DNA from: a virus
Lineage: Duplodnaviria; Caudoviricetes
IMG/VR virus record: IMGVR_UViG_2510065010_000001
Location: 64,001 to 128,000 of that record
Direction: 5' to 3' (one strand)
Length of the DNA: 64,000 bases
Shown here: positions 1,227 to 22,964 of the stretch, in pieces
Numbering within the stretch: position 1 is the first letter of the stretch
How the letters are laid out: every line of letters starts with the position of its first letter
Program-made: the position numbers and the translations under genes
The notes under the pieces: model-generated
Told to the model about the DNA's origin: nothing
The model's database searches: none
Seen by the model: only the letters and a program-made list of their open reading frames with translations

Positions 1227-1400
1227 TTATTAACTCAGAAGACTTTGTGAACTACCTACACCGCACTTCGTGTCGGTGTAGGCTTCTGGCACATTTTTAA
1301 TGTTTCCAGAACTTCCTTCGAGGTACTATTAGTGGTAGATTCAGTTACCACCAGATTCCCTCTACGGCGTTTTATCGTGGGGAACAGTCCCAGCCCCACA
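1227..1400 (-). ncRNA. predicted TnpB omega/reRNA; scaffold overlaps the tnpB 3' end, guide = flank AAAGTCTTCTGAGTTAATAA
   Basis: Established TnpB biology applied to the mapped right end; the 5' boundary is approximate. Confidence 0.55.
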
Positions 1401-2650
1401 CGCTTTAGGTTGATTCCGGCGTTAATATCCCGGTCAACCCACAGCATTTCAGATTCATCCCAGTACCCTCGAATACTGCAATCCGTGAACACAAATTCAT
1501 CACGATACGCCAGTAATTGAGATGTATATGCAGGTTTTACTGCCATTGTCCTAGCTCCAGCTTTTCCAGCTATGTATTCTAGGACTTTGAAAAAGTTACC
1601 AAATGCAGCATCATTCCAAGATTTGTTCAATCCTGATTTGGCTGATTGCCCATTAGGGAGATAATTACCATCTTGGTCTTGTTTTGCTTTATTCCTTTTT
1701 GATAAAGCTTTTAGATTTAAGTCTTCGTGGACAAAAACTTTTTTACCAGTTCTGACAAGTCTATGAGCAGTTTTAAAAGCGTGGTCTTTCCTTGCTCTGG
1801 CTATGCGCTGATGTTCTCTTGCTTCTCGTTTTGCTAGTTTGCGTCTTGCTCTACTACCTTTCTTTTTAGTAGACTTGCGATGCGACACTTTGGCTAGACG
1901 TTGTTCCGACTTTCTGAATGATTTCAGTGCAGGGAGTTTGGTATTTTCGCTAGTAGCTAGATAATCATCTTCATGGAGTACCGCATCAATCCCAATCGTG
2001 TTTTCCCATGTTGGTACTATTTCGTCATGGGTGAACTCCGGTACGCTTGGATCTTCTAGACAGATAGTTAAATACCACCCATCAGCTTTTAAGGTAAGCA
2101 GTGCATTTTTGAGCGTAAACCCTTCAGGTAATGGTCGGTGCAGTCTTACCTTTACCCAACCTTTGAGTTTAGAAAAAGATAAAAATAACCAGTCTTTCTC
2201 TACACGCTCTATCGTTATAGCTTGCCCTTCTATCTTCATAGTGCGGTAACGAGCAGCATTCTTAAATCGTGGTTTACCACTACGATTGCCGTTACCATCA
2301 CCCTTAATAAAACGCCCAAAAGCCAAGTCAACCCGTTTGCAAACATCTTGTAATGTTTGGGAGGGTACGCGAGAAAAATCTAGTAACTCGCCAGAATGAG
2401 CGACTTTTATCAAATCTTCTTTGATAATTGGTAACTGTTTTTTCTGGGAGTAAAAATCAGGATTGTCTCGCAGTTGAGGTAATGAGCAGATTAACGGGCA
2501 AGCGTTAATACTATTGCGGTTATTTTCCCACCAATCAAATCTATCTCCTAGTTGCTTGTTGTACCAGTATCGACAGACTCGCAACCAATAATTGAGTTCT
2601 AGTTTTTGATTGGTATTTGGATAAGTTCGATACTGATAATTAAGCAACAT
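1256..2650 (-). CDS. tnpB: TnpB RNA-guided endonuclease (IS200/IS605 family)
   Basis: N-terminal YQYRTYP helix-turn-helix region; RuvC motifs IGIDA, VHEDL and DRDINAGINL; the stop codon overlaps the right-end hairpin. Confidence 0.93.
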   Translation of the reverse strand: MLLNYQYRTYPNTNQKLELNYWLRVCRYWYNKQLGDRFDWWENNRNSINACPLICSLPQLRDNPDFYSQKKQLPIIKEDLIKVAHSGELLDFSRVPSQTLQDVCKRVDLAFGRFIKGDGNGNRSGKPRFKNAARYRTMKIEGQAITIERVEKDWLFLSFSKLKGWVKVRLHRPLPEGFTLKNALLTLKADGWYLTICLEDPSVPEFTHDEIVPTWENTIGIDAVLHEDDYLATSENTKLPALKSFRKSEQRLAKVSHRKSTKKKGSRARRKLAKREAREHQRIARARKDHAFKTAHRLVRTGKKVFVHEDLNLKALSKRNKAKQDQDGNYLPNGQSAKSGLNKSWNDAAFGNFFKVLEYIAGKAGARTMAVKPAYTSQLLAYRDEFVFTDCSIRGYWDESEMLWVDRDINAGINLKRVGLGLFPTIKRRRGNLVVTESTTNSTSKEVLETLKMCQKPTPTRSAV

Positions 2651-4597: not shown

Positions 4598-4670
4598 CCC
4601 AGAGTGCAGGATTCGAACCTGCGTGGGGCATCTTAGAAGGATGCTGCTTAATCCGCTCAGCCAACTCTGG
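4598..4670 (-). tRNA. tRNA-Arg (anticodon UCU)
   Basis: Acceptor stem CCAGAGT/ACTCTGG, D arm, anticodon arm GCATC-CTTCTAA-GATGC, T arm GCAGG-TTCGAAT-CCTGC; CCA not encoded directly after the discriminator. Confidence 0.93.
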
Positions 4671-7686: not shown

Positions 7687-8508
7687 TTAAGAATTGAATC
7701 CAGTTCTACTGATCATTTTCTGAACCTGTTCCCCGACGTTAATGGTTTTAATAACAACATCAGGATTCTTCACACGATATACCCTGAAGATTTCATCAGC
7801 AAATGAATGTCCGATAGAATCTACTGCGTGGAAATCTAGAACAATCTCTTTGAATGCTGACAACCTGTTTAATAATCTTTTTGCTTGAGAGCGACTCACT
7901 AGGTTCTCGTCGCTGCCATATCGAACCAGGTATACAGGAATTAACGTTCGATCGAAATAATACTCAATGTCAAGTGTGTAGCAGTCAAACACTTCATGCG
8001 TCCGTCGCGTCGTGTTGTCTGAAAGTTTCATAACAACACACGTGCCTTCAGTGAGTTCTTGTTCTTCCACAACCCAATCGTTTGGTTGGTCAAACCTGTG
8101 AGAGAACAACAAGTTCCCAGATCTAATTGTGAACTCGTCGAACATTCGTGAAGTGAAGAATATCCCTTGACCAGTATGCTCTTCCGGGCTGGTTGTAAAC
8201 TTTCCTTTTACTAGCTCAAGTACAGCTAGCATTTCATTCCATAGCCCCGCCGCTTCTTGAACTTTCTTGAAAATCCCTACACCATCATCTTTAATCTCTA
8301 TCTCTGTCACTCCGGCATCTCTGGAAAGACTGATTGTTAAAACACGCCCCTCTGAATGGTCAATGCAGTTATTAACCATCTCTGCAAACCCGTAGCTCCA
8401 GAACTCTAAGACCGTTCTTGCCAGGTCTTGGAATAAAGGTTGGAAGTCGCGGCTCCACACTTCTTCTTCTGAGATGTCTGATAGGTTATACGTTTTGGTT
8501 AACTTCAT
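7687..8508 (-). CDS. HATPase (GHKL) plus STAS-like/DUF4325 domain protein
   Basis: EMVNNCIDHS, IKDDGVGI, HTGQGIFFTS; C-terminal LVSRSQAK..LDF..V.SIG.SFADEIF. Confidence 0.8.
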   Translation of the reverse strand: MKLTKTYNLSDISEEEVWSRDFQPLFQDLARTVLEFWSYGFAEMVNNCIDHSEGRVLTISLSRDAGVTEIEIKDDGVGIFKKVQEAAGLWNEMLAVLELVKGKFTTSPEEHTGQGIFFTSRMFDEFTIRSGNLLFSHRFDQPNDWVVEEQELTEGTCVVMKLSDNTTRRTHEVFDCYTLDIEYYFDRTLIPVYLVRYGSDENLVSRSQAKRLLNRLSAFKEIVLDFHAVDSIGHSFADEIFRVYRVKNPDVVIKTINVGEQVQKMISRTGFNS

Positions 8509-8656: not shown

Positions 8657-9511
8657 CCTGATGAAATCTGTAATTTCTACAGAAATCTAGGCTTTCGCAA
8701 TCGTAGCGGTACGATTACTGCACCGTGGGTTCGCACCACGCTTAGAAGTGCTTTTACGCTTGCTCTGCACTCTGCCAGAAGGTTCGGCACAAAGCATGGC
8801 CTCTAATTGGCTGTTAGCCAGTGTAAAATACTGATGCCGTCTGATAGGCTTCAGCTTGTTATGTAGCGTGTACCATGCTGACCATACGTGCTTTGCCGAC
8901 TTCACATCAGCATAGGCGTTGCGGTTAGGTACACGCTCTGACAATCTCATGGCTCTACGCGCTAGAACCATTGCAGCAGCGGTATCCAAAGATAGGCCGT
9001 ACTGTCTCATAAATTTCACTAATCCAATCGTTGAACTATAGGCAGGATTGACTTTAATCAATTCAATTCCTGCCAGTTCACATTTCTGCTCCAGCAACGT
9101 GGTGAACTTGCCATAAATAAAACCTGAGAGCATCCTCGCATACCGCCTACCTTGCTCTCTCATCTGTGACTTCTTACTCTGGAAGTCCAGATTTTCAATC
9201 ACAATTGGGCACCGAAAGGTTTGAGCCAGTGTTACCAGTTGCTTCGTCACATCATGCAACGTGGCGGCAATCTGACCAGATCGACGGCTATGCAAGTTGA
9301 TTTTGAACTGGCCGTGATGCTTCAGGTTGCCGTCTCGATCCACGTATGTCCAACCGATGACACCTGGGTTAATATCCACTCCCAAGCAACCATACTGTTT
9401 TGGCAAGCTCTTACGGTCTGGAACTAATTCCCCGGTCTGCTCCCACTTGCGGAGAGTCTCTATTGAAACCCCTAGCAAGTCTGCTGCTACCCCTATCTTG
9501 ATAAATCTGCT
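8657..9511 (-). pseudogene. internally deleted IS607-type element: MerR-like HTH of the serine transposase fused in frame to the RuvC half of TnpB
   Basis: SRFIKIGVAADLLGVSIETLRKWE (IS607 TnpA HTH) joins at about 9410 to GCLGVDINP..IVIENLDF..VNPAYSS..DTAAAMVLARR; IS607-like end with AGATTT repeats and GG near 8657. Confidence 0.75.
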
Positions 9512-9648
9512 TTTAGGAGAATGCACCGCTAACTTGTACTTTAGACTGCATGTAATGTTCAAGCATCTCAATCCTACGGATATTGATCGCAGCATACCTA
9601 CGTTGGAAACTGCTGAGGCGTTTATTAATGCTGAAGAGGAAGAGAGTA

Positions 9649-9732
9649 GGGAAGAGTGCACGGCGTAGGTAAGAGTGGGAAGAGTGGGAAGAGCGGGAAG
9701 AGCAGATTGGATTGGGAAGAGTGCACGGCGTA
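9649..9732. repeat. purine-rich repeats: GGGAAGAG units plus a 19-bp direct repeat
   Basis: GGGAAGAGTGCACGGCGTA at 9649-9667 and 9714-9732, flanking tandem GGGAAGAG(T/C) units. Confidence 0.85.
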
Positions 9733-10055
9733 AACACCCTTGAAATGAAGCGTGGGAAGGGTTAAGTTTACATTCTGATGAGAGGATTAAATAGACGGCT
9801 ATTACAGGGTTAAAAGTGAGCACATAATCAACGTAGAATGTGCTAGTAAAAAAATTGCCGATCGCACTCTTCCCATATAGCGCGCCCACCCCCAAACTCT
9901 TTACAATACTCACTCCCGAATTTTCACACCCCCTCTAAAATGCAAACCTCAGCCATTCTCCATCGGATGAGGTTTGCATATGAACCTGCCAAATGCTTTC
10001 CCGGCTGTAGGCAGGTTCTACTTTTTGGGTATAAAACTAATATGCTTGTATTACC

Positions 10056-12137: not shown

Positions 12138-12812
12138 TTACTTACGACCACCCAAAGAAGCAGGGATTGCAACCGGGCGGCGAGTCACAGGAGCAGAAGC
12201 AACAGCTTGAACTTCAGTACTTCCAGAGAAAGGTGTCTCGCGACGGGTAACATTACCCTTCTTGAGTTCACCAACTGGAGCAACAAAGCTAGCACCGTTA
12301 CCCATCCAGAAGTTGTCGATTGCATAGCTCTCCCAAAGAGAACCATTAATCTCAACATCTTCTTCCTGCATCAGGTCAAACACGATGAACGAGTCAGCTT
12401 GAGGCAGCGCAGGAGACAAGAAGTATGCACCAGAACCAGTGGTTAGTACAACTTCCCCGCTTTTGAACTCTTGACCAATCATGCGGGTAGCATAGTTAGA
12501 CAAAGACTTCCAAATGCCAGCTTCAAAATCAGACTCGCGGATATTGATTGCAGCTTTAGCATGTTTGTGATTGCCGTTCTCATACGCCATACCAAGAGCA
12601 TGGAATAAGTCGATACGAACAGACACTTGGATACTGCCATCATCTTGATGAACAGCACCACGAACAGCCAAAGCACAACGCTCCCGAACAACTCCATCCT
12701 TACCAGTCTCTTTATACATCAAAGACTGCAAAGAAATAGGCGTAATACCATCCTTAAAGGAAGGAGCAGCATTCAGTTCAGCGTTGTAAATAGCAATAGT
12801 CGTCATGGTCAA
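12138..12812 (-). CDS. hypothetical early protein
   Basis: 224 aa, strong AGGAGA SD, biased codon use typical of a highly expressed gene. Confidence 0.75.
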   Translation of the reverse strand: MTMTTIAIYNAELNAAPSFKDGITPISLQSLMYKETGKDGVVRERCALAVRGAVHQDDGSIQVSVRIDLFHALGMAYENGNHKHAKAAINIRESDFEAGIWKSLSNYATRMIGQEFKSGEVVLTTGSGAYFLSPALPQADSFIVFDLMQEEDVEINGSLWESYAIDNFWMGNGASFVAPVGELKKGNVTRRETPFSGSTEVQAVASAPVTRRPVAIPASLGGRK

Positions 12813-12993: not shown

Positions 12994-14871
12994 CTACGCG
13001 GCAACTTTTAAGTCATCTGGTGTAAACCAAACAAACTGAACGTTGTCTTTGATCCAAGTGAAGGCTTCATCATCGTTGAGTAGTAACTCACCCATTGCAG
13101 CCCTGTCCTTTACACACATCCCAATGATGTTATCCATCTGATAGATAACACACGTTTCGGATTCAGATAAAACGCTGGCTTTAGGATTCGCTACGTATTC
13201 AACTTCCATAAGTAAATGGTCACGCACCCAAACTTTGCTGTCGCCAGCGTCAGACCAAACGGCTGGGTAAACCTTTTGCCCCAAGGCTCTAAACATCCCT
13301 ATTTCAGCTTTGGTAATAAATTGCTTCACTCGATGTTCGCAATGCACCACTTTATTAAGGATGTTTGGTTTGTTGCACAGGATATGCAAATATTCCGGGT
13401 TTGTCACCCGACTGCACACAACATACAACAACCCGTGAGTTTTTCTCCCACTATTCAGGTGATACACCAGCGGTTCGTTGATTGTTAACCCTTGGCACTT
13501 CCAAGGAGTCATTGAATGACACAGTACGCCGGGTAAAGCCCTGAATTTACCAATGGGTTTACCCTTTTTCCCAACAGGAAGAGGAACATCAACAGGGCTA
13601 ATCCAGTGAAGTTCACCATCTGGTAACTCAATCTGAATACGTGTCGGTTCAAGCTTCTTGATTATTCCAACTGTTCCGTTAACCAGCTTCTCGCTGATGT
13701 TCACTCGAACCATGAACTTTAACCCAGTTGCCAGAGTCATCTCTTCACTTAAAGGAGCCACTTCTTTGAGAATTCGTGCTCTCAAAGATTTAAGAGACTC
13801 ATTATCTGAAGTCGCCATCCCCATATCAGCAGTGTAAGTTCTGATCGTCTCACCCCGCTGCTTCGCAGCTTGAAGAACAACTTTGTTGTGGTCTGCTACT
13901 TCTTTATTAGTATTGAACAAGTGGATCGCATCATCTAATGATGCCAAGTCCAAACGTTCGTTACTTCTAAAGTTAATAAAGTCGTCACCTCTTTGGGTCC
14001 AGACTCGACTTAGTAACCGAGATACTTTTGGGTGATTAAAGTTGTTACCGTCACCCATCTCGTTTAGAGCTTCCACAAACCAACCATCACTACTTTTCTG
14101 ACGATGATTAGTAACGAGCGAAATTGCAGTTGCTCTCCAAGGTTGCTCATACTTTCTACGCTCTAATTCAAATGGTCCTTCACCGTCTACTAGCATAGAG
14201 CCGTATAGTCGAACATCATCTTTGTGAGAGCCAGCTTGGTGAAACTTAGCCTGCTCAAATGCCAAACTGTTAAAAACCTGCCAGGGAAGATTTTCTTGTT
14301 TGTCAATGATTAACAACTGACGGAAGTCACCAGTCAGGACAAATCGAACCCGACGGTTTGGACAGCATCGTTTAATAACTTGGTAAGTAAGTACCAAGTC
14401 CTCAGATGAAACCATTGACATTTCATCAATGAACACAACTAAGTCGCATTTCTCACGAGGATCAAAGTTAGCTGCAACATCTTCGGCTCTAGCGATCGTG
14501 CTGACACGAATCCAATGGTCACTGCAGAAATCGCGCATTCCAGCAGGAAGTGTAGACCCACCTGCACGTAATCCTGCAAACTTATTAAGTGTGCCTTCAC
14601 CTTGAGCGTTTCTGGCAGCAACACCTGTGGATGCACACACACGTACTTCATGTCCCTGCATTTTGAGCAAAGTTCTAGCTGCATTAATGATGAAAGTCTT
14701 TCCACTTCCACCTCTTCCTAACAACGCAATGCAATCATATACACCTGACCCAATTGTTGACATAGCTACTAATTGGTCGTCACTCATCGTTTCCCAGTAA
14801 GGCAAATCTTGAATTGCCTCGTTTTGATTAGATAACCAGGCTTTTGCAGCTAGCAAATCCATCTCTTTCAT
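12994..14871 (-). CDS. Pif1/RecD-like SF1B DNA helicase
   Basis: GRGGSGKT, ASTGVAA, IDEMSMV, GDFRQL, NHRQ, NGTVG, T.WKCQGLT, YVVCSRV. Confidence 0.92.
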   Translation of the reverse strand: MKEMDLLAAKAWLSNQNEAIQDLPYWETMSDDQLVAMSTIGSGVYDCIALLGRGGSGKTFIINAARTLLKMQGHEVRVCASTGVAARNAQGEGTLNKFAGLRAGGSTLPAGMRDFCSDHWIRVSTIARAEDVAANFDPREKCDLVVFIDEMSMVSSEDLVLTYQVIKRCCPNRRVRFVLTGDFRQLLIIDKQENLPWQVFNSLAFEQAKFHQAGSHKDDVRLYGSMLVDGEGPFELERRKYEQPWRATAISLVTNHRQKSSDGWFVEALNEMGDGNNFNHPKVSRLLSRVWTQRGDDFINFRSNERLDLASLDDAIHLFNTNKEVADHNKVVLQAAKQRGETIRTYTADMGMATSDNESLKSLRARILKEVAPLSEEMTLATGLKFMVRVNISEKLVNGTVGIIKKLEPTRIQIELPDGELHWISPVDVPLPVGKKGKPIGKFRALPGVLCHSMTPWKCQGLTINEPLVYHLNSGRKTHGLLYVVCSRVTNPEYLHILCNKPNILNKVVHCEHRVKQFITKAEIGMFRALGQKVYPAVWSDAGDSKVWVRDHLLMEVEYVANPKASVLSESETCVIYQMDNIIGMCVKDRAAMGELLLNDDEAFTWIKDNVQFVWFTPDDLKVAA

Positions 14872-14912
14872 ATGTCCCCCTTAAGACTTGAATCGTTCAA
14901 AAGTAAACAAAC

Positions 14913-14934
14913 AGGGGAGGAGTTACCCTCCCCT
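14913..14934 (-). terminator. hairpin/terminator between the RNAP gene and the helicase
   Basis: AGGGGAGG/CCTCCCCT stem followed by GTTTGTTTACTTTT on the minus strand. Confidence 0.5.
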
Positions 14935-14940
14935 ACCGAG

Positions 14941-16041
14941 CTAAAACAAATCAAGGTCAATCTCTACAACCTCTCCTTGTATCGCTACTGCAATCGTTTT
15001 GCAGAACTCCCAGCATTGAGCAACTGTGATTGATTTCTCAACCAAGCTCAAAGATGGGTTTATGGTTGTTAGCCAACTTACGAAGTTGTCAACCATCGAC
15101 TTGTGTGTGTCTTCTCCAGCAACATCAAACTGCCCTTTGGATATTAGTGCTGCCATCTCTGCAGTCAACTTAATAAAATCTTCCGGGCTTTCATAGAAGT
15201 CAGTCACTTCTCCAGACTTTGAGATGTTCCTACAGGCTGCAACTTCCTTAGCTGCTGAATAAATATCCAGTGCACAAGCACCGTTCATATCAGCAGCGTT
15301 CAGTTCTTTCTCAAACTTTGCTATCACTTCTGGGTTCGTTGTACCCAGATCCATACCCTGGATTACTGGAATCAACGTACCAAAAATGACATCGTATGCT
15401 TCCCAGCTTAGACCTCCTAGAGGTACTTCGTAAATCTCAGCAAGGATCAGGACTAAAGATTTGTTCTTTGTGAACTCTGGAGGAGTCCAATCTGGGAACA
15501 GTTTCTTTAGGTCGTCTTGCAAAGACCAGACAAGGCTCAAGTACAGATCAGCTGTTAAGAACAATCTATGCACCCAACCAACAGCCTCTTGAAACATCAA
15601 GGTGCTTCCTTCCAGCATCCCAGGCAAGCTCTTTCGAGTTTGCTTGTCTCGTAAATCAGTCGAGCATAAGTCAATGCTGAGATTCTTTGCACCCAAACCA
15701 CGTTTCTTGGCTACTGCCTTTTCAGAAGGTACGTTGTAGTGGTCACCCCAATAGGCACCACCTGGTACTAGTTGATCTGAACCTGTCCTTTTAACTACGT
15801 TACTAACAACATCATCAAATGTCGTTAACTCTAAGTTGGAGTCTCCTGCATCGCAGAATACTCTGTTATCACCATCACAGTCACCCGCATCACGTACATT
15901 ACCGATCGGGCTAATGTACGCAGTATCTTCTTCAAACCAATCTGCAAGAGGATGATCATCGTAAATGACACGAACCTTCATAATAGAAGGTGTTGTCATG
16001 GGAGCACGACTCATCATTACTTTCTTTCCGTCTAAACTCAT
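14941..16041 (-). CDS. putative phage RNA polymerase catalytic subunit (C-terminal half of the beta'-like barrel)
   Basis: GGAGGA SD before MSLDGKK; SRAP followed about 40 aa later by AGDCDGD (15868-15882), matching the R-x-P..DxDGD signature of two-barrel polymerases. Confidence 0.72.
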   Translation of the reverse strand: MSLDGKKVMMSRAPMTTPSIMKVRVIYDDHPLADWFEEDTAYISPIGNVRDAGDCDGDNRVFCDAGDSNLELTTFDDVVSNVVKRTGSDQLVPGGAYWGDHYNVPSEKAVAKKRGLGAKNLSIDLCSTDLRDKQTRKSLPGMLEGSTLMFQEAVGWVHRLFLTADLYLSLVWSLQDDLKKLFPDWTPPEFTKNKSLVLILAEIYEVPLGGLSWEAYDVIFGTLIPVIQGMDLGTTNPEVIAKFEKELNAADMNGACALDIYSAAKEVAACRNISKSGEVTDFYESPEDFIKLTAEMAALISKGQFDVAGEDTHKSMVDNFVSWLTTINPSLSLVEKSITVAQCWEFCKTIAVAIQGEVVEIDLDLF

Positions 16042-16122
16042 ATGTCCTCCAAGAAAATGAGTAAGCGGAGCCAAACTGACTCCGCTCGGTGTACGACGTG
16101 ATATTGGTCATTGAACTGTTAC

Positions 16123-19100
16123 TTAACTGAAAACTCGTTCCATCAAAGAATGAACCGAGTTCTTACGAGCAGAATCCCGCACCCACACTTCATTTACAGG
16201 GATACCTGGTAACGCCATCGTCTTTGCCTGCATGGACATGCGGCAGAACGCAGCAGATTTTACCAAAGCACCACTCTCAGTCAACTTCGTAAGAGCACCC
16301 TTTGCGCGACCCGCAAGCTGTAGATATTCAGGACTATTCGTTGCAGCACCGTTGATGTATTGAACAACCAGTTGAGTGATCAGGTCACTCATTCCATCTA
16401 CACTTGCAAAATCTGTATTTGCATCCTGTGCTGCCACAGCGGGTAGGTACACACTGAAGTGCCCCTTAATGCCACAGCAAACACTGAATACACAATTTCT
16501 AAACATTGGAGCCAGAAGTTTCAACAGGTTACCTGCATTAACCGGGTTATTAACCAGGTCACGAAGCTCCTCGGTTTGCAGCAGACTAGCTGCATTTGAG
16601 TCGCCTAGCATATACATTGGTAAATCGTTTCCACCTTTGGCTTTGATGGTTTGATTCTTTGCCATCGCAAAGAATACAGCAGATTTGTGGACCTGCTTGA
16701 ACCCATCCTTTACTAGTCGTTGCGCAAACGCAGGATCTTCTGTCTCAACAGCACGGGCTACTCCAGCCATCAAAGGTGTTTGTCCTACACTTGCACGAAC
16801 ACTTGACAACTCAGCTTTCACTGGTTGCCACACTGCACCCGTCTTATTTGTCCCTGCATAAGACCAAGCACGTTGTACAAAATACTCCACACCTTCAACA
16901 GTGTAAAACACAAGTACGTTGGTCTTATGGTTTTCAATGCACCCGTCAGCATAAACTTCAATGCTTTCTGCATTACTTGGGATGGCATACCCTACAGAAG
17001 TAGGTTCAACCGTTTCCCAACCTTTTGCACCCTTGTACATTTTCTTCAGCACAGTAGTCCACTCTGCAGAAGCGTCTGCATGTCTGAACCAAATTGCGCG
17101 TCCGAACTTGGCTTCAAACCAGTTGATTAGCTGCTGGTATTTACCCATTACAGCCAGAACTGGTGACCACTCCAGATAATTCGCACCCTCAACCCCGACT
17201 AAAGAGTTACACTCTTCAATCAGTTTCAAACCTTCTGCATCGGCATTATTAATTGCAGTGCATACTGCAACATCTGCGATAGATTGCACCAGGTCTAGCC
17301 ACTTATTTGTGTCTGCAAAGAATACAGACCGTGCATTCAACTCTGCGTTGAGGTTGTTGTGAACAACGTCAGGTGTGTAGCGGGAAAGCATACACTTGAT
17401 ATTGTTCCGACCTTTGATTTGATGTTCTCTAGTTTGTGTCACTAACACAACTTGCAGAGTGGTGCGGTTCCCTGCAACTTTAGCCAACCGCCAGCGGATC
17501 TCTAGCAAGTAAGCATCAGGAGTGTTATTTGTGATGGTGTGTCTAAAACAACCCTCTTCTGTAATGTAAGGTACATCACAGATAGGTTCCTTATCAGCAA
17601 TCCGCAATGGTTGTTCCATGCGAATCACTTGCCAGCCTCTACGTTCAAATTGCTGACCACCAACCAATGACACTACAGCACCCGCTAATTCCTCCTCCTT
17701 AATTACTCCTGGTACATTAGGTTGTACCGTTTGCGTATGTTTGACTAACAGTGTTGGTCCTTCACCCCAGTAAACTGCCATACCAGCAGGAAAAGTGGCA
17801 TGAGGTGAAACTACTGCTTCCACAACCCAGTTATTACTTGATTCAACAGATTGACCAAAGCGTTTCAAGCCTCTGGTACTTCCTCCTTCCAGCAAACCAA
17901 CACAAGCTGCGTCCATTGCTGTACGCTTAATCAGCTTGGCTAATTTAGAAGACAACCCGATAATTAGATGCTGAGAAGCAGTCTTAATAACCTCCTCGTC
18001 AGAACCACTCAAACCAAACTGTTGACGGGCATATTCTGCAATTGCAGCTTCAGTGTTGTCAGTTAGCTGACTTAGCACTTCCCGCACAAACTGCTCACGC
18101 AGCTCGCTTGGTACGTGCTTTGCTTGGATGCAACTGCGACGACCATCGATAAACTGACCCCGTGGCATACGAACTAAGTTGAACCCTAACAAAGCACTAC
18201 GGTCCACAACATGCTTTGCAGGTAACTTTGCACCCTTTATTTGGACACCGTTCTTCTCTACATCACCAAGACTGGTTACTCCAATCTCACGGTTGTAAAT
18301 AACTTTGGTGTTCCATTCACCGTCTACTTGATACCGAGCAAACCCAAAGGGCATATCGGTTGCAGATAATCTGGTGACCGTAACATAACGGTCGTAGTAA
18401 GTGCGATCGCCATCATAGGCTTGCGCTTCATCATCTGACTGCACTGGCAGCTCAACGAACATTTTCTTAGATACCAACTGACCCAATTCAGGAACAGGAG
18501 CAGTTAGATATTTTGCACCCAACATGACCAATCCGTACAGGAATGTGCCATAGCTATTAACTAAGGACATGTCTTCTGCAGGAATGCGTACTCCACGACC
18601 ACGACCAGTCAGGCTGCTAACCAACAGCATGTTATTAAACCGTAGGTTACGGCTAACTTCAAACACGCCATCCTTAGCAGTGACTCGGAATTCGTACTCG
18701 TCGATCCACACGCTGAAACCATCTTCTCCGGTGGCAGACACTTGAATAGGTGAGACACCACCTTTACAGAGTGCTCCTGCTAACCAATCAATTACAACTG
18801 CAACGTCAGCTTGTGTTGCATTGAAATCAAAACAACGGGTCCAGTTGTGATCGACGTATACGATGCGGTCTTGCACCCCAAACACTTGCTCAATCACTGG
18901 ACGAGCAAGTGCATAAGTTAATAACTTGAACTCTACTCCTAAGTTGGCGTAAACACCTGTCAAGAGAGCTTGACGTACACACCATTCTTCTAGCGCGTGT
19001 GTGTGAGCTAACCTCTTAACAATTTCACCGTCCTTAATCAAAGAACGGTATTGAGACATTGCAGTACCCAATACAGAGGGTTGTTGTACAAACCGACCGT

Positions 19101-19452
19101 ATTGTTTCAGCACGTCAAGTCCTGCAATGTGCAGACTGTTGTTACGGGTGTGATCTGCAAAGTAGAACACTTCATCCAGCTCAATAGGAAAAGTAAGTTG
19201 AGCTGTTTGTCTTAAACGCAAATAACACCATGCAGCAAACAAAGAAGCTTGCACAGAGCTTACAGCGTTAATAACGTTGTTGCTCAGAATACGACCAGCA
19301 AGCTTCTCACCCATAACAGCGGTAATAGCTTCACCAGGTGTGAGCTTACTTACAGCTGCGATATTGAATTGTGTGCGACCTTTCATAGCGTAGAAAGGAT
19401 CAGCAAGTACGTTCCAGTTGTTGTTCAATTGTAAATCCATGATGTCCTCCAA
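16123..19452 (-). CDS. putative phage RNA polymerase large subunit (beta-like barrel plus start of the beta'-like barrel)
   Basis: 1109 aa; QIKGRNNIKCML resembles the beta K..R..K motif; C-terminal CRMSMQAKTMALPGIPVNEVWV resembles the first strands of the beta' barrel; directly upstream of the DCDGD gene. Confidence 0.6.
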   Translation of the reverse strand: MEDIMDLQLNNNWNVLADPFYAMKGRTQFNIAAVSKLTPGEAITAVMGEKLAGRILSNNVINAVSSVQASLFAAWCYLRLRQTAQLTFPIELDEVFYFADHTRNNSLHIAGLDVLKQYGRFVQQPSVLGTAMSQYRSLIKDGEIVKRLAHTHALEEWCVRQALLTGVYANLGVEFKLLTYALARPVIEQVFGVQDRIVYVDHNWTRCFDFNATQADVAVVIDWLAGALCKGGVSPIQVSATGEDGFSVWIDEYEFRVTAKDGVFEVSRNLRFNNMLLVSSLTGRGRGVRIPAEDMSLVNSYGTFLYGLVMLGAKYLTAPVPELGQLVSKKMFVELPVQSDDEAQAYDGDRTYYDRYVTVTRLSATDMPFGFARYQVDGEWNTKVIYNREIGVTSLGDVEKNGVQIKGAKLPAKHVVDRSALLGFNLVRMPRGQFIDGRRSCIQAKHVPSELREQFVREVLSQLTDNTEAAIAEYARQQFGLSGSDEEVIKTASQHLIIGLSSKLAKLIKRTAMDAACVGLLEGGSTRGLKRFGQSVESSNNWVVEAVVSPHATFPAGMAVYWGEGPTLLVKHTQTVQPNVPGVIKEEELAGAVVSLVGGQQFERRGWQVIRMEQPLRIADKEPICDVPYITEEGCFRHTITNNTPDAYLLEIRWRLAKVAGNRTTLQVVLVTQTREHQIKGRNNIKCMLSRYTPDVVHNNLNAELNARSVFFADTNKWLDLVQSIADVAVCTAINNADAEGLKLIEECNSLVGVEGANYLEWSPVLAVMGKYQQLINWFEAKFGRAIWFRHADASAEWTTVLKKMYKGAKGWETVEPTSVGYAIPSNAESIEVYADGCIENHKTNVLVFYTVEGVEYFVQRAWSYAGTNKTGAVWQPVKAELSSVRASVGQTPLMAGVARAVETEDPAFAQRLVKDGFKQVHKSAVFFAMAKNQTIKAKGGNDLPMYMLGDSNAASLLQTEELRDLVNNPVNAGNLLKLLAPMFRNCVFSVCCGIKGHFSVYLPAVAAQDANTDFASVDGMSDLITQLVVQYINGAATNSPEYLQLAGRAKGALTKLTESGALVKSAAFCRMSMQAKTMALPGIPVNEVWVRDSARKNSVHSLMERVFS

Positions 19453-19476: not shown

Positions 19477-20661
19477 CTAAGCAAACGGATTTGGTCTTTT
19501 AGAGATGTTGCCGATGGGCATACTTTCGATAGGTTCTTCAACATCTTCTTCAGACTCTTCGCAGTAGTCATCATCTGCTACACCAGAACTAGCTGTCTCT
19601 ATGTCCATAAGTTGAAATTCATCGTCTTCTTCAACGGAAAGGTGCTGAAGCTTTTCGAGAATTGCAGCAGAGGTCATTTGAGTAGCAGTAGGCTGGGTAA
19701 CAGGAGTTTGAGTGTTAGCAGTTACTTCAACTTTGCTCTTTTGAGGAAGAGGAGTTTCAGCAACTTTGGTTGCAACAGTTGGCATTCTGCGTTCTACTTT
19801 TGGAGTAGGAATACCAACTTCACGACGGGACCGTGCTTGCATCACCTCTTCAGCAAGCTTTTCTTTTAGGCTCTTACCACCAACCATCAAGTCTGCTCTA
19901 ACACGGAGTTTGTTCAACCCAGTAGCTAGAGCGGTAGAGCTACCAACTTTCCGACCACCAACTAGGTAAGCTCCGTTAAATGCAGCACCCCAGAACGGTT
20001 GACCGTCAACACCATCAAAGGATTTTGTGTACTGAGGAAATCCAACCATGCAAACTAGAAACTGCTCTCCAGCAGCAACACCTAATTCGTCTGCCAGGTC
20101 GTTCATTAACTCCGTAAACTGCTGACGGGCAGCATCGTGATAGTCAGACCAGTTATCAACTGTTCTATTTGCAGTAGATAACTGCATAGAAACTGCTGGA
20201 CGGTCTTCCCCCTTGCGATTAAAGGGTTCTCGATACATTACAGGTACAGGCACAACTAAGTCGTCATCACCATAAAACTCTGCTTCTACAAACAGGTCTG
20301 GTTTGACAACCGCGTTCTTACCCCATTCACCACAGGGTAGATACTTAGACTCTTTAGCAAAAGCAGCATTACGAATGCTTGGTGATGCGTAGGTCAAGTT
20401 ACCGTCTTTATCTAGACGAACTGCAAAGACACCTACACATACACTTTTCGCTCTAAACTGCTTTGCAGGTGCAACGGCAAGGTCAGAGCGGAATACAAAC
20501 AACTCCCGTAGGCGGGAGGGAACCATGTTGAGGTCAACATCTTCGATGTCAACACCAACCGGACGTAATCCTAAGTCTTCTCCGATAGAAGGGCTACCAG
20601 CTCCGCTATCTCCTAGACCCTGTTCAATTAACTCAACAATTGTCTCGCTTAAAACAGTCAT
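19477..20661 (-). CDS. hypothetical early protein with acidic C-terminal tail (SSB or RNAP cofactor-like)
   Basis: 394 aa; acidic disordered tail ending NPFA; in operon with the RNAP genes. Confidence 0.7.
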   Translation of the reverse strand: MTVLSETIVELIEQGLGDSGAGSPSIGEDLGLRPVGVDIEDVDLNMVPSRLRELFVFRSDLAVAPAKQFRAKSVCVGVFAVRLDKDGNLTYASPSIRNAAFAKESKYLPCGEWGKNAVVKPDLFVEAEFYGDDDLVVPVPVMYREPFNRKGEDRPAVSMQLSTANRTVDNWSDYHDAARQQFTELMNDLADELGVAAGEQFLVCMVGFPQYTKSFDGVDGQPFWGAAFNGAYLVGGRKVGSSTALATGLNKLRVRADLMVGGKSLKEKLAEEVMQARSRREVGIPTPKVERRMPTVATKVAETPLPQKSKVEVTANTQTPVTQPTATQMTSAAILEKLQHLSVEEDDEFQLMDIETASSGVADDDYCEESEEDVEEPIESMPIGNISKRPNPFA

Positions 20662-21987: not shown

Positions 21988-22654
21988 CTAGCAGTGATAA
22001 AGGTAGCCAAACCAAGTTTGGAGTAGTTCGTCTAAACTTGCAGTAACCATTTTGTGTACTGATTTCACGTCTGCATCTGCATTAATTCGGATGATTGCCC
22101 TGGGATACTGTTCGTGCAACTGCTTATAGACAGCTCGAACTTTTTCGTGAAAGAGTAATGATTCTTCGTCGAAATGATTGTTTTGGACTCTGACTTTAAG
22201 ACGCTCTAGCGCTATTTGTGGAGACACGTCTAACCATATAGTAGTACTCGGTAATACTCCTTGCACACTAAAGTTGTTTAACCAATTCAAAATACCCATA
22301 TTAAACCCACGACCGCCCCCCCTGATATGCAAGAGTGGAGTCGATAAACCGATCGCACAGTACCAGATTTCCCTTTATTAGTTCAGGTTTAATAACTCTT
22401 GAAACATGCTCAGCACGGTCAGCTTGGTAAAGCAACAACTCTGCGTGGGTGGATAGCTTATTGTTCAGTAGTAGTGAATGCAACTCTTTACCTAACTCAG
22501 TACCACCTGGCTCTCTTGTTACGATAATCTTCTTCAAACCCTTTTCTATTTTCTCTTTCCAACCACTGGTTTCTAACCACTGCACTAGCATGATAAGTTG
22601 TGTGGTTTTTCCAGAACCATCTATTCCTTCAAAGGTTACTAACTTTCCGTTCAT
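21988..22654 (-). pseudogene. tmk: thymidylate kinase split by a one-base frameshift in a G7 tract
   Basis: N-half [32 protein letters not shown]; C-half GRG..WLDVSPQIALER; C7 run at 22316-22322. Confidence 0.88.
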
Positions 22655-22661
22655 AAAATTC

Positions 22662-22964
22662 CTAATCAATACTAATTCCACGGCAGCGCGTGGGGATTCC
22701 GTAACTAAATGTTGGTCTTGCTAAAATGAATGCATCAAGCACCAGTACTTTACAATCCCACGGCAAAATAACGGATCGACCGTGACTTACAGTACTAAAC
22801 CGACACGTTTGAGTTTCTTGATCAAGCTTAATAAAGGGTATCTCTACCCAAATTTCTTTCTCTTCAAATGCCTGCTCCATCCATTGAGAAGGTACCTTAG
22901 CTTTTATAGGAGTTTGCATACTCGCATGTAACTCCAAATCACGTAAAGTTATTGGTTGTGTCAT
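22662..22964 (-). CDS. hypothetical protein
   Basis: 100-aa ORF coupled to its neighbours. Confidence 0.6.

What the first reader, a model, noticed from the sequence alone, without database searches (positions are those of the whole stretch)
14941..19452. Non-virion RNA polymerase apparently split inside its catalytic barrel, with a DCDGD active site
The 1109-aa gene ends with a segment like the first half of the beta' double-psi barrel. The next gene starts immediately with the second half (SRAP..GDCDGD). The two are in the same frame but separated by two stops, a hairpin (16064-16086) and a GGAGGA SD, which argues for a genuine two-subunit enzyme. Cys replaces the usual Phe of DFDGD. Minimal phage two-barrel RNAPs such as SPbeta YonO are single chains, and phiKZ-type enzymes have more subunits. 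It is co-operonic with a Pif1-like helicase and two unknown proteins that may be specificity or SSB factors.
Basis: partly seen in the sequence, partly recalled or inferred. Interest (0 to 1): 0.85.

Follow-up and report, generated by a model that had tools for sequence, protein, structure and literature searches.

The report
Split two-barrel phage RNA polymerase
A prophage in a bacterial chromosome encodes a very diverged relative of the cellular RNA polymerase core whose catalytic barrel is divided between two separately translated proteins, next to a DNA helicase that is fused to the same enzyme in related phages.

Summary
On the minus strand, a 1105/1109-aa gene (16123-19440/19452) and a 366-aa gene (14941-16041) are separated by 81 nt. 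That gap holds two stops, a hairpin and a GGAGGA ribosome site.

They belong to a rare family: 62 representatives among 1.84 billion proteins. Its members are mostly single chains of 1300-2700 aa. An AlphaFold model of a fused relative (53-56% identical; pLDDT 92) matches two-barrel polymerases, with QDE-1 best at Z 11.6, then RDR2, Pol I, beta/beta' and phage P23-45 gp96.

The break falls inside the catalytic barrel. Strands 1-2 and a helix sit on the large protein. Strands 3-6, the DCDGD motif and a 43-residue helix where two-barrel RNAPs have the bridge helix sit on the small one.

The split is real. Seven full-length small-subunit homologues and three large-subunit homologues show it. A metagenome relative has the two genes in different frames. 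The split forms are not one clade (AU p 0.0013).

The Cys in DCDGD is not special, because that position varies across the family.

The neighbouring Pif1/Dda-like helicase is fused to the polymerase in 17 of the 62 representatives. Whether the enzyme transcribes or primes is unresolved.

This scan had already noted the single-chain, helicase-coupled form on other DNA (e1-5807143, e1-5807153). The split is what is new here.

The parts
19477..20661 (-). Upstream gene, 394 aa, no known family. Globular N-terminal part of about 275 aa, then a Pro/Thr-rich linker, an acidic stretch and an invariant C-terminal tip RxNPFA. Candidate single-strand-binding or accessory factor.
   Evidence: No Pfam or PHROG hit. 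42% identical to the gene at the same position in L003. 5 proteins at E<=0.001, including the window's own. Alignment A3 shows the invariant tip. AF2 model pLDDT 57. Best VIA Z only 3.2, with about 19 of the 50 listed rows being OB-fold ssDNA binders; this is a hint only.
16123..19452 (-). Large subunit (1109 aa from TTG 19452; probably 1105 aa from ATG 19440). It carries the beta-like barrel (invariant K680, R682, K686), the connector region, and the first two strands plus the helix of the catalytic barrel (about residues 1069-1108).
   Evidence: Homologues. Invariant columns. Secondary-structure mapping from the model of fused P0015. Fold matches.
16042..16122 (-). 81-nt spacer that splits the gene. 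It follows stop TAA (16123-16125) and holds an in-frame TGA (16108-16110), a hairpin (16063-16087) followed by a T-rich tail, and the ribosome site GGAGGA (16045-16050).
   Evidence: L003 has an analogous hairpin, T-run and GGAGGA, with unrelated sequence and a different relative frame.
14941..16041 (-). Small subunit, 366 aa. It carries strands 3-6 of the catalytic barrel, the invariant R12-x-P14 and G53-D54-x-D56-G57-D58 (DCDGD at nt 15868-15882), a long helix (about residues 140-182) at the position where two-barrel RNAPs have the bridge helix, and a C-terminal helical domain.
14910..14937 (-). Terminator-like hairpin (12 pairs) between the small-subunit gene and the helicase gene.
12994..14871 (-). 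Pif1/Dda/RecD-like SF1B helicase, 625 aa. Walker A GRGGSGKT at residue 52, Walker B VVFIDE at residue 145. Its start ATG follows GGGGGACAT.
   Evidence: Pfam AAA_30 51 bits (cut-off 27) and PIF1 33.1 bits (cut-off 25.9). PHROG 325 Dda-like helicase, E 8.6e-36. Motifs. Fused to the polymerase in 17 of 62 representatives and in the L002 ORF.
12138..12812 (-). Downstream gene, 224 aa, no known family, conserved in position.
   Evidence: No Pfam hit. 28% identical, E 3e-17, to the gene at the same position in L003.

Best explanation
The two genes encode the two parts of one nucleotide polymerase of the two-barrel (double-psi beta-barrel) superfamily. It belongs to the branch that holds QDE-1/RDR and the single-chain phage enzymes.

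Shown:
- The ancestral form is a single chain of about 1450 aa.
- In this lineage the gene was cut cleanly, with no net loss of residues, in the variable loop between the first helix and the third strand of the catalytic barrel.
- The small gene has its own ribosome site and start codon.

Inferred:
- The two proteins assemble by completing the barrel. The large one gives the beta-like barrel with its Lys/Arg residues and two strands of the catalytic barrel. The small one gives the other four strands, the three Mg-binding Asp and the probable bridge-helix region.
- The enzyme makes RNA on phage DNA together with the neighbouring 5'-3' SF1B helicase, which would supply unwound template. The 394-aa acidic-tailed protein may help as a single-strand binder. 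This would parallel QDE-1 with the QDE-3 helicase and RPA.
- Most likely role: the prophage's second, non-virion RNA polymerase, made from the non-structural operon, beside the giant PLD-linked polymerase encoded at the head of the virion genes.
For: Family:
- 62 representatives at E<=0.001. 46 are 1287-4116 aa, one is 1177 aa and 15 are under 600 aa.
- The fused relatives P0015, P0019 and P0020 align to the small subunit from its residue 3 onward.
- Invariant columns: R12, P14, G53, D54, D56, G57 and D58 in 47 of 47 rows; K680, R682 and K686 in 44 of 44 rows.

Fold:
- AF2 model of P0015 residues 397-1471: pLDDT 92.2, pTM 0.90.
- Foldseek against PDB gave 56 hits at E<=0.001. Those listed are RNAP beta', beta, Rpb2, QDE-1 and RDR2 chains, apart from two aminopeptidase N rows.
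- VIA-align: QDE-1 7y7p_A Z 11.6, 401 aligned, rmsd 5.1; ZmRDR2 Z 10.2, 443 aligned; Pol I 7aoc_A Z 10.2; P23-45 gp96 Z 9.2; AR9 7s00_d Z 8.1; phiKZ 7ogp_A Z 7.4.
- The designed barrel 7dww_A aligns to model 666-769 (Z 9.2, rmsd 1.9). The break at model 703/704 lies inside that range.

Split is genuine:
- 7 full-length small-subunit homologues (57-68% identical by BLASTP) all start at the same point.
- Large-type homologues P0012, P0014 and P0017 end at the same point.
- L003 has the same five-gene order, with its own hairpin and GGAGGA.
- The connector is 21 residues here against a median of 25 (range 19-67) in 40 fused rows.

Helicase coupling: fused in 17 of 62 representatives and in the viral contig L002.

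Analogy: QDE-1 needs RPA and the helicase QDE-3 on ssDNA (passage read in 10.1101/2020.03.07.982082). Phages with a virion and a non-virion two-barrel RNAP are documented (PMC10770324).
Against: - No activity data exist for any member of the family.
- No sequence-level match to any named RNAP family: Pfam, PHROGs and PDB sequence searches were all empty.
- The fourth catalytic acid of the beta-like barrel could not be located with certainty. D436 is Asp in only 22 of 32 rows, and the invariant D714 lies after the Lys/Arg motif rather than before it.
- Fusion of a polymerase to a 5'-3' helicase is the usual logic of primase-helicases, not of transcription enzymes.
- The prophage has a family-A DNA polymerase but no recognisable primase or DnaB-type helicase.
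- The Ma-LMM01 transcriptome paper reports sigma-70-like promoters for all gene classes (PMC5780444, passages). That group carries a distant single-chain homologue.
- Other genes of this prophage are fragmented: thymidylate kinase and the family-A polymerase. Some decay therefore cannot be excluded.
Confidence: 0.6

Rival explanations
1. Same enzyme, different job. The polymerase, the SF1B helicase and the acidic-tailed protein form a replicative helicase-primase. The helicase moves 5'-3' on the lagging-strand template, and the two-barrel enzyme lays down RNA primers for the prophage's family-A DNA polymerase.
For: - The helicase is fused to the polymerase in 17 of 62 representatives and in L002.
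- The cassette sits with nucleotide-metabolism genes (thymidylate kinase).
- The prophage has a family-A DNA polymerase, RecA, ribonucleotide reductase and nucleases.
- Searches of the whole genome with PF13155, PF01807, PF09250, PF01896 and PF03796 found only host loci elsewhere, or nothing.
- Recalled, from no call: the herpesvirus UL5 helicase of the UL5/UL52 helicase-primase is an SF1-type helicase. A weak Herpes_Helicase Pfam hit was seen here (E 0.094).
Against: - No two-barrel enzyme is known to serve as a replicative primase. None was found in the literature searches.
- At about 1475 aa, with a long helix at the bridge-helix position and a region that aligns with Rpb1/beta' well beyond the barrel (model 655-1054), it looks like a processive RNA polymerase.
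- Failure to detect a primase by five Pfam models does not show that one is absent. Many phages use the host primase or recombination-dependent replication, and a RecA gene is present.
- MaMV-DC gp065, a distant homologue, has no helicase among the five neighbouring genes scanned: gp063, gp064, gp066, gp067 and gp068.
Confidence: 0.2
2. The enzyme makes RNA for a purpose other than gene expression or priming. Like its closest structural matches QDE-1 and RDR2, it might copy RNA or ssDNA into RNA as part of a conflict or regulatory system of the phage.
For: - The best structural matches are the RNA-silencing polymerases QDE-1 (Z 11.6) and RDR2 (Z 10.2).
- Ruprich-Robert and Thuriaux raised this possibility for YonO-like proteins (PMC2919709, section 8 read).
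- One family member is fused to an AlkB-like 2OG-Fe(II) oxygenase (P0071).
Against: - Phage members of this clade that have been studied are DNA-dependent transcription enzymes: YonO (abstract start only, search listing) and P23-45 gp64/gp96 (passages and section 12 read). For crAss-like phi14:2 gp66 I saw only the preprint's title and abstract start in the listing and the passages; its role in transcription is recalled.
- A shared fold does not show a shared template preference.
Confidence: 0.1
3. The split is damage. A decaying prophage carries a polymerase gene broken by a small insertion, and the two ORFs are not a working enzyme.
For: - Thymidylate kinase lies in two overlapping ORFs.
- The family-A polymerase is in at least three pieces, one with a stop.
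- Transposase genes lie in the window.
- In a 99%-identical relative the large ORF is cut at 741 aa and ends in an unrelated tail (P0013).
Against: - The same cut, with its own start codon and ribosome site, is kept in homologues only 57-68% identical and in L003.
- All family-invariant residues are intact on both parts.
- The connector length is unchanged.
- The translation start region of the small gene matches that of the large gene almost letter for letter.
Confidence: 0.04

Closest known systems
QDE-1 (Neurospora) and RDR2 (plants), single-chain two-barrel RNA polymerases of RNA silencing
   Same: - Best structural matches: 7y7p_A Z 11.6, 401 residues aligned; 7w84_A Z 10.2, 443 aligned.
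- Same barrel order, beta-like first and catalytic second.
- G-D-x-D-G-D motif preceded by R-x-P.
- QDE-1 works with a helicase (QDE-3) and an SSB (RPA).
   Different: - 8-13% sequence identity, with no sequence-level match.
- Those enzymes are eukaryotic and single-chain.
- The partner helicase there is separately encoded (recalled, from no call: it is a RecQ-type helicase). Here it is a Pif1/Dda-type helicase that is adjacent or fused.
- Here the catalytic barrel is divided between two proteins.
Single-chain phage two-barrel RNAPs: SPbeta YonO, crAss-like phi14:2 gp66, Thermus phage P23-45 gp64/gp96 and P74-26 gp62
   Same: - Same superfamily, and the same idea of a minimal phage RNAP without alpha or omega subunits.
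- P23-45 gp96 Z 9.2 (314 aligned) and P74 gp62 Z 8.4 (364 aligned).
- Phages with one virion and one non-virion enzyme are documented (PMC10770324).
   Different: - No detectable sequence similarity: no PHROG hit at E<=0.01.
- Those enzymes are single chains.
- No helicase is mentioned in the main text of PMC10770324 (0 occurrences).
- No solved YonO chain was among the rows listed.
Multisubunit non-virion RNAPs of jumbo phages (phiKZ, AR9) and the cyanobacterial gamma/beta' split
   Same: - Phage-encoded two-barrel RNAP made of several polypeptides.
- Weak structural matches: 7s00_d Z 8.1, 7ogp_A Z 7.4.
   Different: - Their beta' split lies after the intact catalytic barrel (PMC7598289, passages read). 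Here the cut is inside the barrel.
- They have four or five subunits derived from bacterial beta and beta'. This enzyme derives from a single-chain QDE-1/YonO-type protein.
MaMV-DC gp065 (ORF65L, NC_029002.1 49224-54257, 1677 aa, 'hypothetical protein')
   Same: - Best hit in the viral structure library: A0A075BUT7_2, E 1.2e-18, TM 0.46/0.57, 909 columns.
- Profile-profile probability 93.5%, E 2.2e-7, over the catalytic barrel.
- GDADGD at about residue 1350.
- Same phage type by tail sheath similarity.
   Different: - Single chain, about 13% identity.
- Not found by tblastn or by the profile search.
- No helicase among the five neighbouring genes scanned.
Single-chain, helicase-coupled relatives noted earlier by this scan (e1-5807143, e1-5807153; 1442 aa, 195-kb cyanophage contig)
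   Same: Same family. P0019 (1442 aa, contig of 195,211 bases) is 42% identical to the large subunit and 46% identical to the small one. The earlier notes and this report reach the same helicase linkage.
   Different: Those are unsplit. The present locus is the two-gene form.

Membership tests
Two-barrel (double-psi beta-barrel) nucleotide polymerases | Two double-psi beta-barrel domains forming one catalytic core | tested here: met
   Model of the fused homologue, pLDDT 92.2. Full-length matches to QDE-1, RDR2, Rpb1/Rpb2, beta/beta' and phage RNAPs. Isolated barrel domains align to model 664-782. Tested on homologue P0015 (53-56% identical to the window's proteins), not on the window's own chains.
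Two-barrel (double-psi beta-barrel) nucleotide polymerases | Three Mg-binding Asp (DxDxD; Rpb1 D479/D481/D483) in the catalytic barrel | tested here: met
   D54, D56 and D58 of the small subunit are invariant in 47 of 47 rows. A DxDGD motif is present at the module position in all 46 family members of 1287 aa or longer.
Two-barrel (double-psi beta-barrel) nucleotide polymerases | Invariant Arg-x-Pro before the Asp triad (Rpb1 R446/P448; QDE-1 R962/P964), as listed in PMC2919709 | tested here: met
   R12 and P14 (SRAP) are invariant in 47 of 47 rows. The feature list was read in section 8 of the paper.
Two-barrel (double-psi beta-barrel) nucleotide polymerases | Two invariant basic residues in the beta-like barrel (Rpb2 K979/K987; QDE-1 R738/K743) | tested here: met
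   K680, R682 and K686 of the large subunit are invariant in 44 of 44 rows and 32 of 32 rows. They lie on strands of the region that aligns with Rpb2 and beta. The residue-to-residue equivalence is inferred.
Two-barrel (double-psi beta-barrel) nucleotide polymerases | Invariant acidic residue of the beta-like barrel (Rpb2 D837; QDE-1 D709) | tested here: inconclusive
   Two candidates: D436 (Asp in 22 of 32 rows, Asn in 4) and the invariant D714.
Two-barrel (double-psi beta-barrel) nucleotide polymerases | Template-dependent nucleotide polymerisation | not testable with these tools
   No activity data exist for any member of the family.
Single-chain QDE-1/RDR/YonO-type clade | Both barrels on one polypeptide, beta-like barrel first | tested here: not met
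   Relatives meet it: 46 of 62 representatives are single chains of 1287 aa or more. In the window the protein is two polypeptides cut inside the second barrel. It descends from this kind but is not itself single-chain.
Single-chain QDE-1/RDR/YonO-type clade | Detectable sequence relation to YonO or other named phage members | tested here: inconclusive
   No PHROG or Pfam family at the thresholds used. The relation rests on fold only. No direct profile comparison with YonO was made.
Jumbo-phage multisubunit RNAP (phiKZ/AR9 type) | beta' split after an intact catalytic barrel; beta and beta' each in N- and C-terminal pieces | tested here: not met
   The cut lies inside the barrel and there are only two pieces. 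The definition comes from passages of PMC7598289.
Pif1/Dda/RecD-like SF1B helicase (neighbouring gene 12994-14871) | P-loop helicase core matching the Pfam and PHROG models above cut-off, with Walker A and B motifs | tested here: met
   AAA_30 51 bits (cut-off 27), AAA_19 37.8 bits (25.1), PIF1 33.1 bits (25.9). PHROG 325, E 8.6e-36. GRGGSGKT and VVFIDE motifs. Translocation polarity is inferred from family membership.
Single-strand DNA-binding protein (upstream gene 19477-20661) | OB-fold core, disordered linker and conserved acidic C-terminal tip | tested here: inconclusive
   The linker, acidic stretch and invariant RxNPFA tip are present. The core model has pLDDT 57, and the best structural Z is 3.2, with OB-fold proteins among many weak rows.

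The most novel reading that the evidence does not exclude
The polymerase, the fused-or-adjacent 5'-3' SF1B helicase and the acidic-tailed 394-aa protein are a replication machine: the first helicase-primase built on a two-barrel (RNA-polymerase-type) catalytic core. It would serve large cyanophages that carry a family-A DNA polymerase but no recognisable primase. The repeated cutting of the gene inside its catalytic barrel would show that this barrel can assemble from two separate polypeptides.
Probability: 0.2. Interest if true: 0.9.

Novelty: new variant of a known kind. Interest (0 to 1): 0.62.

Why it matters
- The double-psi barrel that holds the catalytic Asp triad is the most conserved element of cellular-type RNA polymerases. 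The natural splits I could check in print lie after the intact catalytic barrel: the cyanobacterial gamma/beta' split and the beta' split of jumbo phages (PMC7598289). From recall, the archaeal A'/A'' split is also outside the barrel.
- Here the barrel must be completed by two proteins, and the tree suggests this happened more than once at the same loop. That gives a natural test case for how such barrels fold and assemble, and a possible template for engineered split polymerases.
- The tight coupling to an SF1B helicase (adjacent or fused in one family) points to a way of making RNA on unwound DNA that has not been studied in phages. It leaves open whether the product is mRNA or primers.
- A distant single-chain homologue sits unannotated in the Ma-LMM01/MaMV group of Microcystis phages. 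Their transcription has been ascribed wholly to the host polymerase (PMC5780444, passages).

Tried and rejected
- Sequence searches for a named family found nothing useful for either subunit or for six fused relatives: Pfam, PHROGs and PDB sequences.
- tblastn of the small and large subunits against 50,697 phage records gave no match. Megablast of the locus gave none.
- Pattern-based locus scans found 1 viral contig (L002), 0 in genome contigs and 1 metagenome contig (L003).
- A profile of the small subunit found no match in 400 other genomes sampled from the same phylum. This means 'not found in those searched', not 'absent'.
- Paralogy with the window's 3311-aa giant protein: hhalign of the small-subunit profile against it gave probability 0.13%. 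No relation is detectable at sequence level.
- Protein atlas look-up of the 394-aa protein gave no usable hit.
- Fold of the 394-aa protein: pLDDT 57 and best Z 3.2. This is too weak to name a fold, so the SSB idea rests on architecture only.
- The neighbours of the fused gene in L002 gave no Pfam hits (8 proteins). Five neighbours of MaMV-DC gp065 gave only an FGE-sulfatase domain.
- A profile search of the MaMV-DC record with A4 found nothing. The homologue was then located with a back-translated GDxDGD pattern and confirmed by hhalign.
- Sequencing runs: no RNA holder listed.
- Stop-codon readthrough as a way to make a fused protein is rejected. There are two stops in the window, and in L003 the two genes are in different frames.
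- The sigma-70-like site inside the large gene (16284-16257, 10 of 12) is not counted as evidence. The region has fewer such sites (16) than its shuffles (mean 22.6).
- Short representatives P0044 and P0070 begin about 20-25 residues before their R-x-P motif and might be further independent splits. Without their contigs this could not be checked.
- Supplements are closed. Supplementary Data 3-4 of PMC10770324 (23 RNAP families; viral genomes with two RNAPs) and Data S2 of PMC2919709 (cyanobacterial YonO-like proteins) may already list this family. I could not see them.
- Literature searches for a helicase-fused or barrel-split two-barrel polymerase listed no paper that describes one.

Full report
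WHAT IS THERE. The window is G000:C1:682804-746803 of a complete 5.53-Mb single-contig bacterial chromosome. The right half of the window encodes a myovirus-type virion module: portal, major head protein, tail sheath and baseplate wedge. The sheath's only phage relatives belong to the Ma-LMM01/MaMV group of Microcystis phages and a Microcoleus phage, at 32-33% identity.

The finding lies in a minus-strand operon that diverges from the virion genes. In transcription order it holds:
- a 394-aa gene (19477-20661);
- the large gene (16123-19452 from TTG; more likely ATG 19440, which follows CTTGGAGGACATC and is where the near-identical P0013 starts);
- an 81-nt spacer;
- the small gene (ATG 16041 to 14941, 366 aa);
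- a hairpin (14910-14937);
- a 625-aa helicase gene (12994-14871);
- a 224-aa gene (12138-12812).

The spacer has the stop TAA (16123-16125), an in-frame TGA (16108-16110), an 11-pair hairpin (16063-16087) and GGAGGA seven bases before the ATG.

NO NAMED FAMILY BY SEQUENCE. Neither protein hits Pfam, PHROGs or PDB sequences at meaningful thresholds.

A RARE FAMILY THAT IS NORMALLY ONE CHAIN.
- The small protein has nine relatives in 5.8 billion clusters. One is its own cluster. Seven are full length (357-373 aa, 57-68% identical by BLASTP) and begin at the same residue. One is a fragment.
- The large protein has relatives of 1108-1125 aa (P0012, P0014, P0017). It also has relatives of 1442-1473 aa (P0015, P0016, P0018, P0019) and one of 1722 aa (P0020).
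- In the longer ones the small subunit aligns from its residue 3 directly after the end of the large one.
- In P0015 the join has one residue more than the window's two ends put together.
- An exhaustive profile search of 1.84 billion representatives gave 62 hits at E<=0.001. 46 are 1287-4116 aa, one is 1177 aa and 15 are under 600 aa.
- Every row covering the motif has G-D-x-D-G-D and R-x-P (47 of 47).
- The large part has invariant K680, R682 and K686 (K-x-R-x3-K), and also K503, K506, R510, D714, K717 and E881.

FOLD. I modelled residues 397-1471 of the fused relative P0015 with an alignment of 51 family members. The model is confident: pLDDT 92.2, pTM 0.90.
- Foldseek against the PDB gave 56 hits at E<=0.001. 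The listed ones are RNAP beta', beta, Rpb2, QDE-1 and RDR2 chains, apart from two aminopeptidase N rows.
- VIA-align against 48,161 chains ranked QDE-1 first (7y7p_A, Z 11.6, rmsd 5.1, 401 aligned, spanning model 29-1064).
- Next came maize RDR2 (Z 10.2, 443 aligned), Pol I A190 (Z 10.2), Pol IV, P23-45 gp96 (Z 9.2), P74 gp62 (Z 8.4), AR9 and phiKZ non-virion RNAP subunits (Z 8.1, 7.4) and PolD (Z 6.0).
- These Z values are moderate for a 1075-residue model. What carries weight is the consistency of the list, the long aligned ranges and the match of the invariant motifs.
- Free-standing double-psi barrels (designed 7dww_A, Z 9.2, rmsd 1.9; Cdc48/VAT N-domains) align to model 664-782.
- The eight residues that Ruprich-Robert and Thuriaux list as invariant in all two-barrel RNAPs (PMC2919709, section 8 read) can be checked. 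Seven have clear counterparts. The beta-like acidic residue is uncertain: D436 is Asp in 22 of 32 rows, and D714 is invariant.

WHERE THE CUT IS. The window's break corresponds to P0015 residues 1099/1100, which is model 703/704.
- The model's secondary structure around it is strand 663-674, strand 682-686, helix 694-702, then the break, then strands 711-715, 723-730, 744-747 and 763-768. The Asp triad is at 758-762.
- The large subunit therefore ends with two strands and the helix of the catalytic barrel (about window residues 1069-1108).
- The small subunit supplies the other four strands, the catalytic loop, a 43-residue helix (model 844-886) at the place where two-barrel RNAPs have the bridge helix, and the C-terminal helical domain. 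That domain aligns with Rpb1/beta' out to model 1050.
- By contrast, the beta' splits of jumbo phages and cyanobacteria lie after the intact barrel (PMC7598289, passages).
- The connector between the helix and strand 3 is a variable loop. It has 19-67 residues (median 25) in 40 fused rows, against 21 residues in the window's two ends combined.

IS THE SPLIT REAL?
- The metagenome relative L003 (59% identical in the small subunit) has the same five genes in the same order. At the same point it has a stop, a GC hairpin with a T-run, GGAGGA and an ATG. The spacer sequence is unrelated, and the small gene is in a different frame.
- This excludes conserved readthrough and an assembly error.
- The translation start region of the small gene is nearly identical to that of the large gene.
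- On quick maximum-likelihood trees of the large-subunit region, the window, P0012 and P0014 form a clade (SH-aLRT 100) beside the fused P0015 and P0016. The split P0017 groups with the fused P0018 and P0019 (SH-aLRT 87-92).
- An AU test rejects a single clade of the four split forms (delta lnL 33.8, p 0.0013). The group was named after the tree had been seen, and only quick searches finished.
- At least two fission events, or a fission followed by re-fusion, at one loop is the simplest reading.
- Against this stand signs of decay in the prophage: thymidylate kinase in two overlapping ORFs, a fragmented family-A polymerase, and a truncated large subunit in a 99%-identical relative (P0013).

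THE HELICASE AND THE OTHER NEIGHBOURS.
- The downstream gene is a Pif1/Dda/RecD-type SF1B helicase with intact Walker motifs.
- In 17 of the 62 representatives the same helicase is fused to the C-terminus of the polymerase (phmmer; Pfam and PHROG for P0031 and P0066).
- The 189-kb viral contig L002 encodes one 2319-aa ORF with DCDGD at 1352 and a Walker A at 1891. The polymerase and helicase therefore work together.
- This scan had reached the same conclusion on a single-chain 1442-aa relative in other DNA (e1-5807143, e1-5807153). I found the fusions independently before reading those notes.
- The 394-aa upstream protein has a globular N-terminal part, a Pro/Thr-rich linker, an acidic stretch and an invariant RxNPFA tip. 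This is the layout of many SSBs, but its model is weak (pLDDT 57, best Z 3.2).

WHAT IT DOES. That it is a two-barrel nucleotide polymerase is well supported. What it makes and why is inference.

For transcription:
- The window also encodes a giant PLD-linked protein with a DFDGD motif at the head of the virion genes (earlier notes). The PLD-domain protein of Microcystis phage LMM01 is a weak BFVD hit of the polymerase model (rank 9).
- Phages with a virion and a non-virion two-barrel RNAP are documented (PMC10770324).
- The enzyme appears to have the full apparatus of a processive RNAP.
- A 5'-3' helicase on the non-template strand would travel with the polymerase.
- QDE-1 needs a helicase and RPA to use ssDNA.

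For priming:
- Polymerase-helicase fusion is the hallmark of primase-helicases.
- The prophage has a family-A DNA polymerase, RecA, ribonucleotide reductase and nucleases. Searches with PF13155, PF01807, PF09250, PF01896 and PF03796 found nothing in it.

I put transcription at about 0.6 and priming at about 0.2.

A DISTANT HOMOLOGUE IN ISOLATED PHAGES.
- The best match in the viral structure library is an uncharacterised MaMV-DC protein (E 1.2e-18, TM 0.46/0.57).
- I located it as gp065 (1677 aa, GDADGD). Profile-profile comparison supports the relation (probability 93.5%, E 2.2e-7).
- The Ma-LMM01 transcriptome paper ascribes all gene classes to host sigma-70 promoters (passages). In the passages I read it does not mention a phage polymerase.

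NOVELTY.
- Cyanobacterial 'YonO-like' proteins were mentioned in 2010 (PMC2919709, section 8). 23 two-barrel families are catalogued in supplements I could not open. The family itself may therefore be listed.
- My searches found no description of a cut inside the catalytic barrel or of the helicase fusion.
- I class the finding as a new variant of a known kind.

Noticed in passing
window 21988-22681, minus strand: Thymidylate kinase lies in two overlapping ORFs. 22301-22681 matches Pfam profile positions 1-100 and 21988-22332 matches positions 111-185. This suggests a frameshift, either real or a sequencing error.
   Followed up: no
G000:C1:802321-805142 (about 56 kb right of the window; locus L005): The prophage's family-A DNA polymerase is fragmented. 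A 481-aa ORF holds the 3'-5' exonuclease and the start of the polymerase domain. Two further pieces follow, one with a TAA inside. Nearby, the ribonucleotide reductase (with a LAGLIDADG endonuclease) and RecA both carry inteins.
   Followed up: partly
L009 9225-14258 (MaMV-DC NC_029002.1 49224-54257, gp065): A 1677-aa 'hypothetical protein' of the isolated Microcystis phage MaMV-DC is a distant single-chain homologue of this polymerase. A second GDFDGD site in the same record lies in the 3560-aa gp082. This phage group would thus have two unannotated two-barrel polymerases.
   Followed up: partly
protein P0071 (3900 aa; family member): One giant relative combines the polymerase module and the helicase with an AlkB-like 2OG-Fe(II) oxygenase domain (residues 835-990) and a DUF4326 domain.
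   Followed up: no
window 16257-16284, minus strand: A sigma-70-like site (TTGACT, 16 nt, TAAAAT with an upstream TG; 10 of 12) lies inside the 3' end of the large gene, about 215 nt before the small gene's start. Such sites are not enriched in the region.
   Followed up: no
window 1256-2650 and 8687-9913, minus strand: Two transposase-like genes (PHROG 506). The second also has a MerR-type HTH and a Cas12f1-like TNB domain. A tRNA-Arg lies at 4598-4670 between them. This may mark the left border of the prophage.
   Followed up: no
window 7687-8508, minus strand: A 273-aa protein with a histidine-kinase-like ATPase domain and a STAS-like DUF4325 domain.
   Followed up: no
protein P0013 (741 aa, 99% identical to the large subunit): In a near-identical relative the large-subunit ORF stops at 741 aa and ends in an unrelated basic tail. 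The gene appears to be disrupted there.
   Followed up: no
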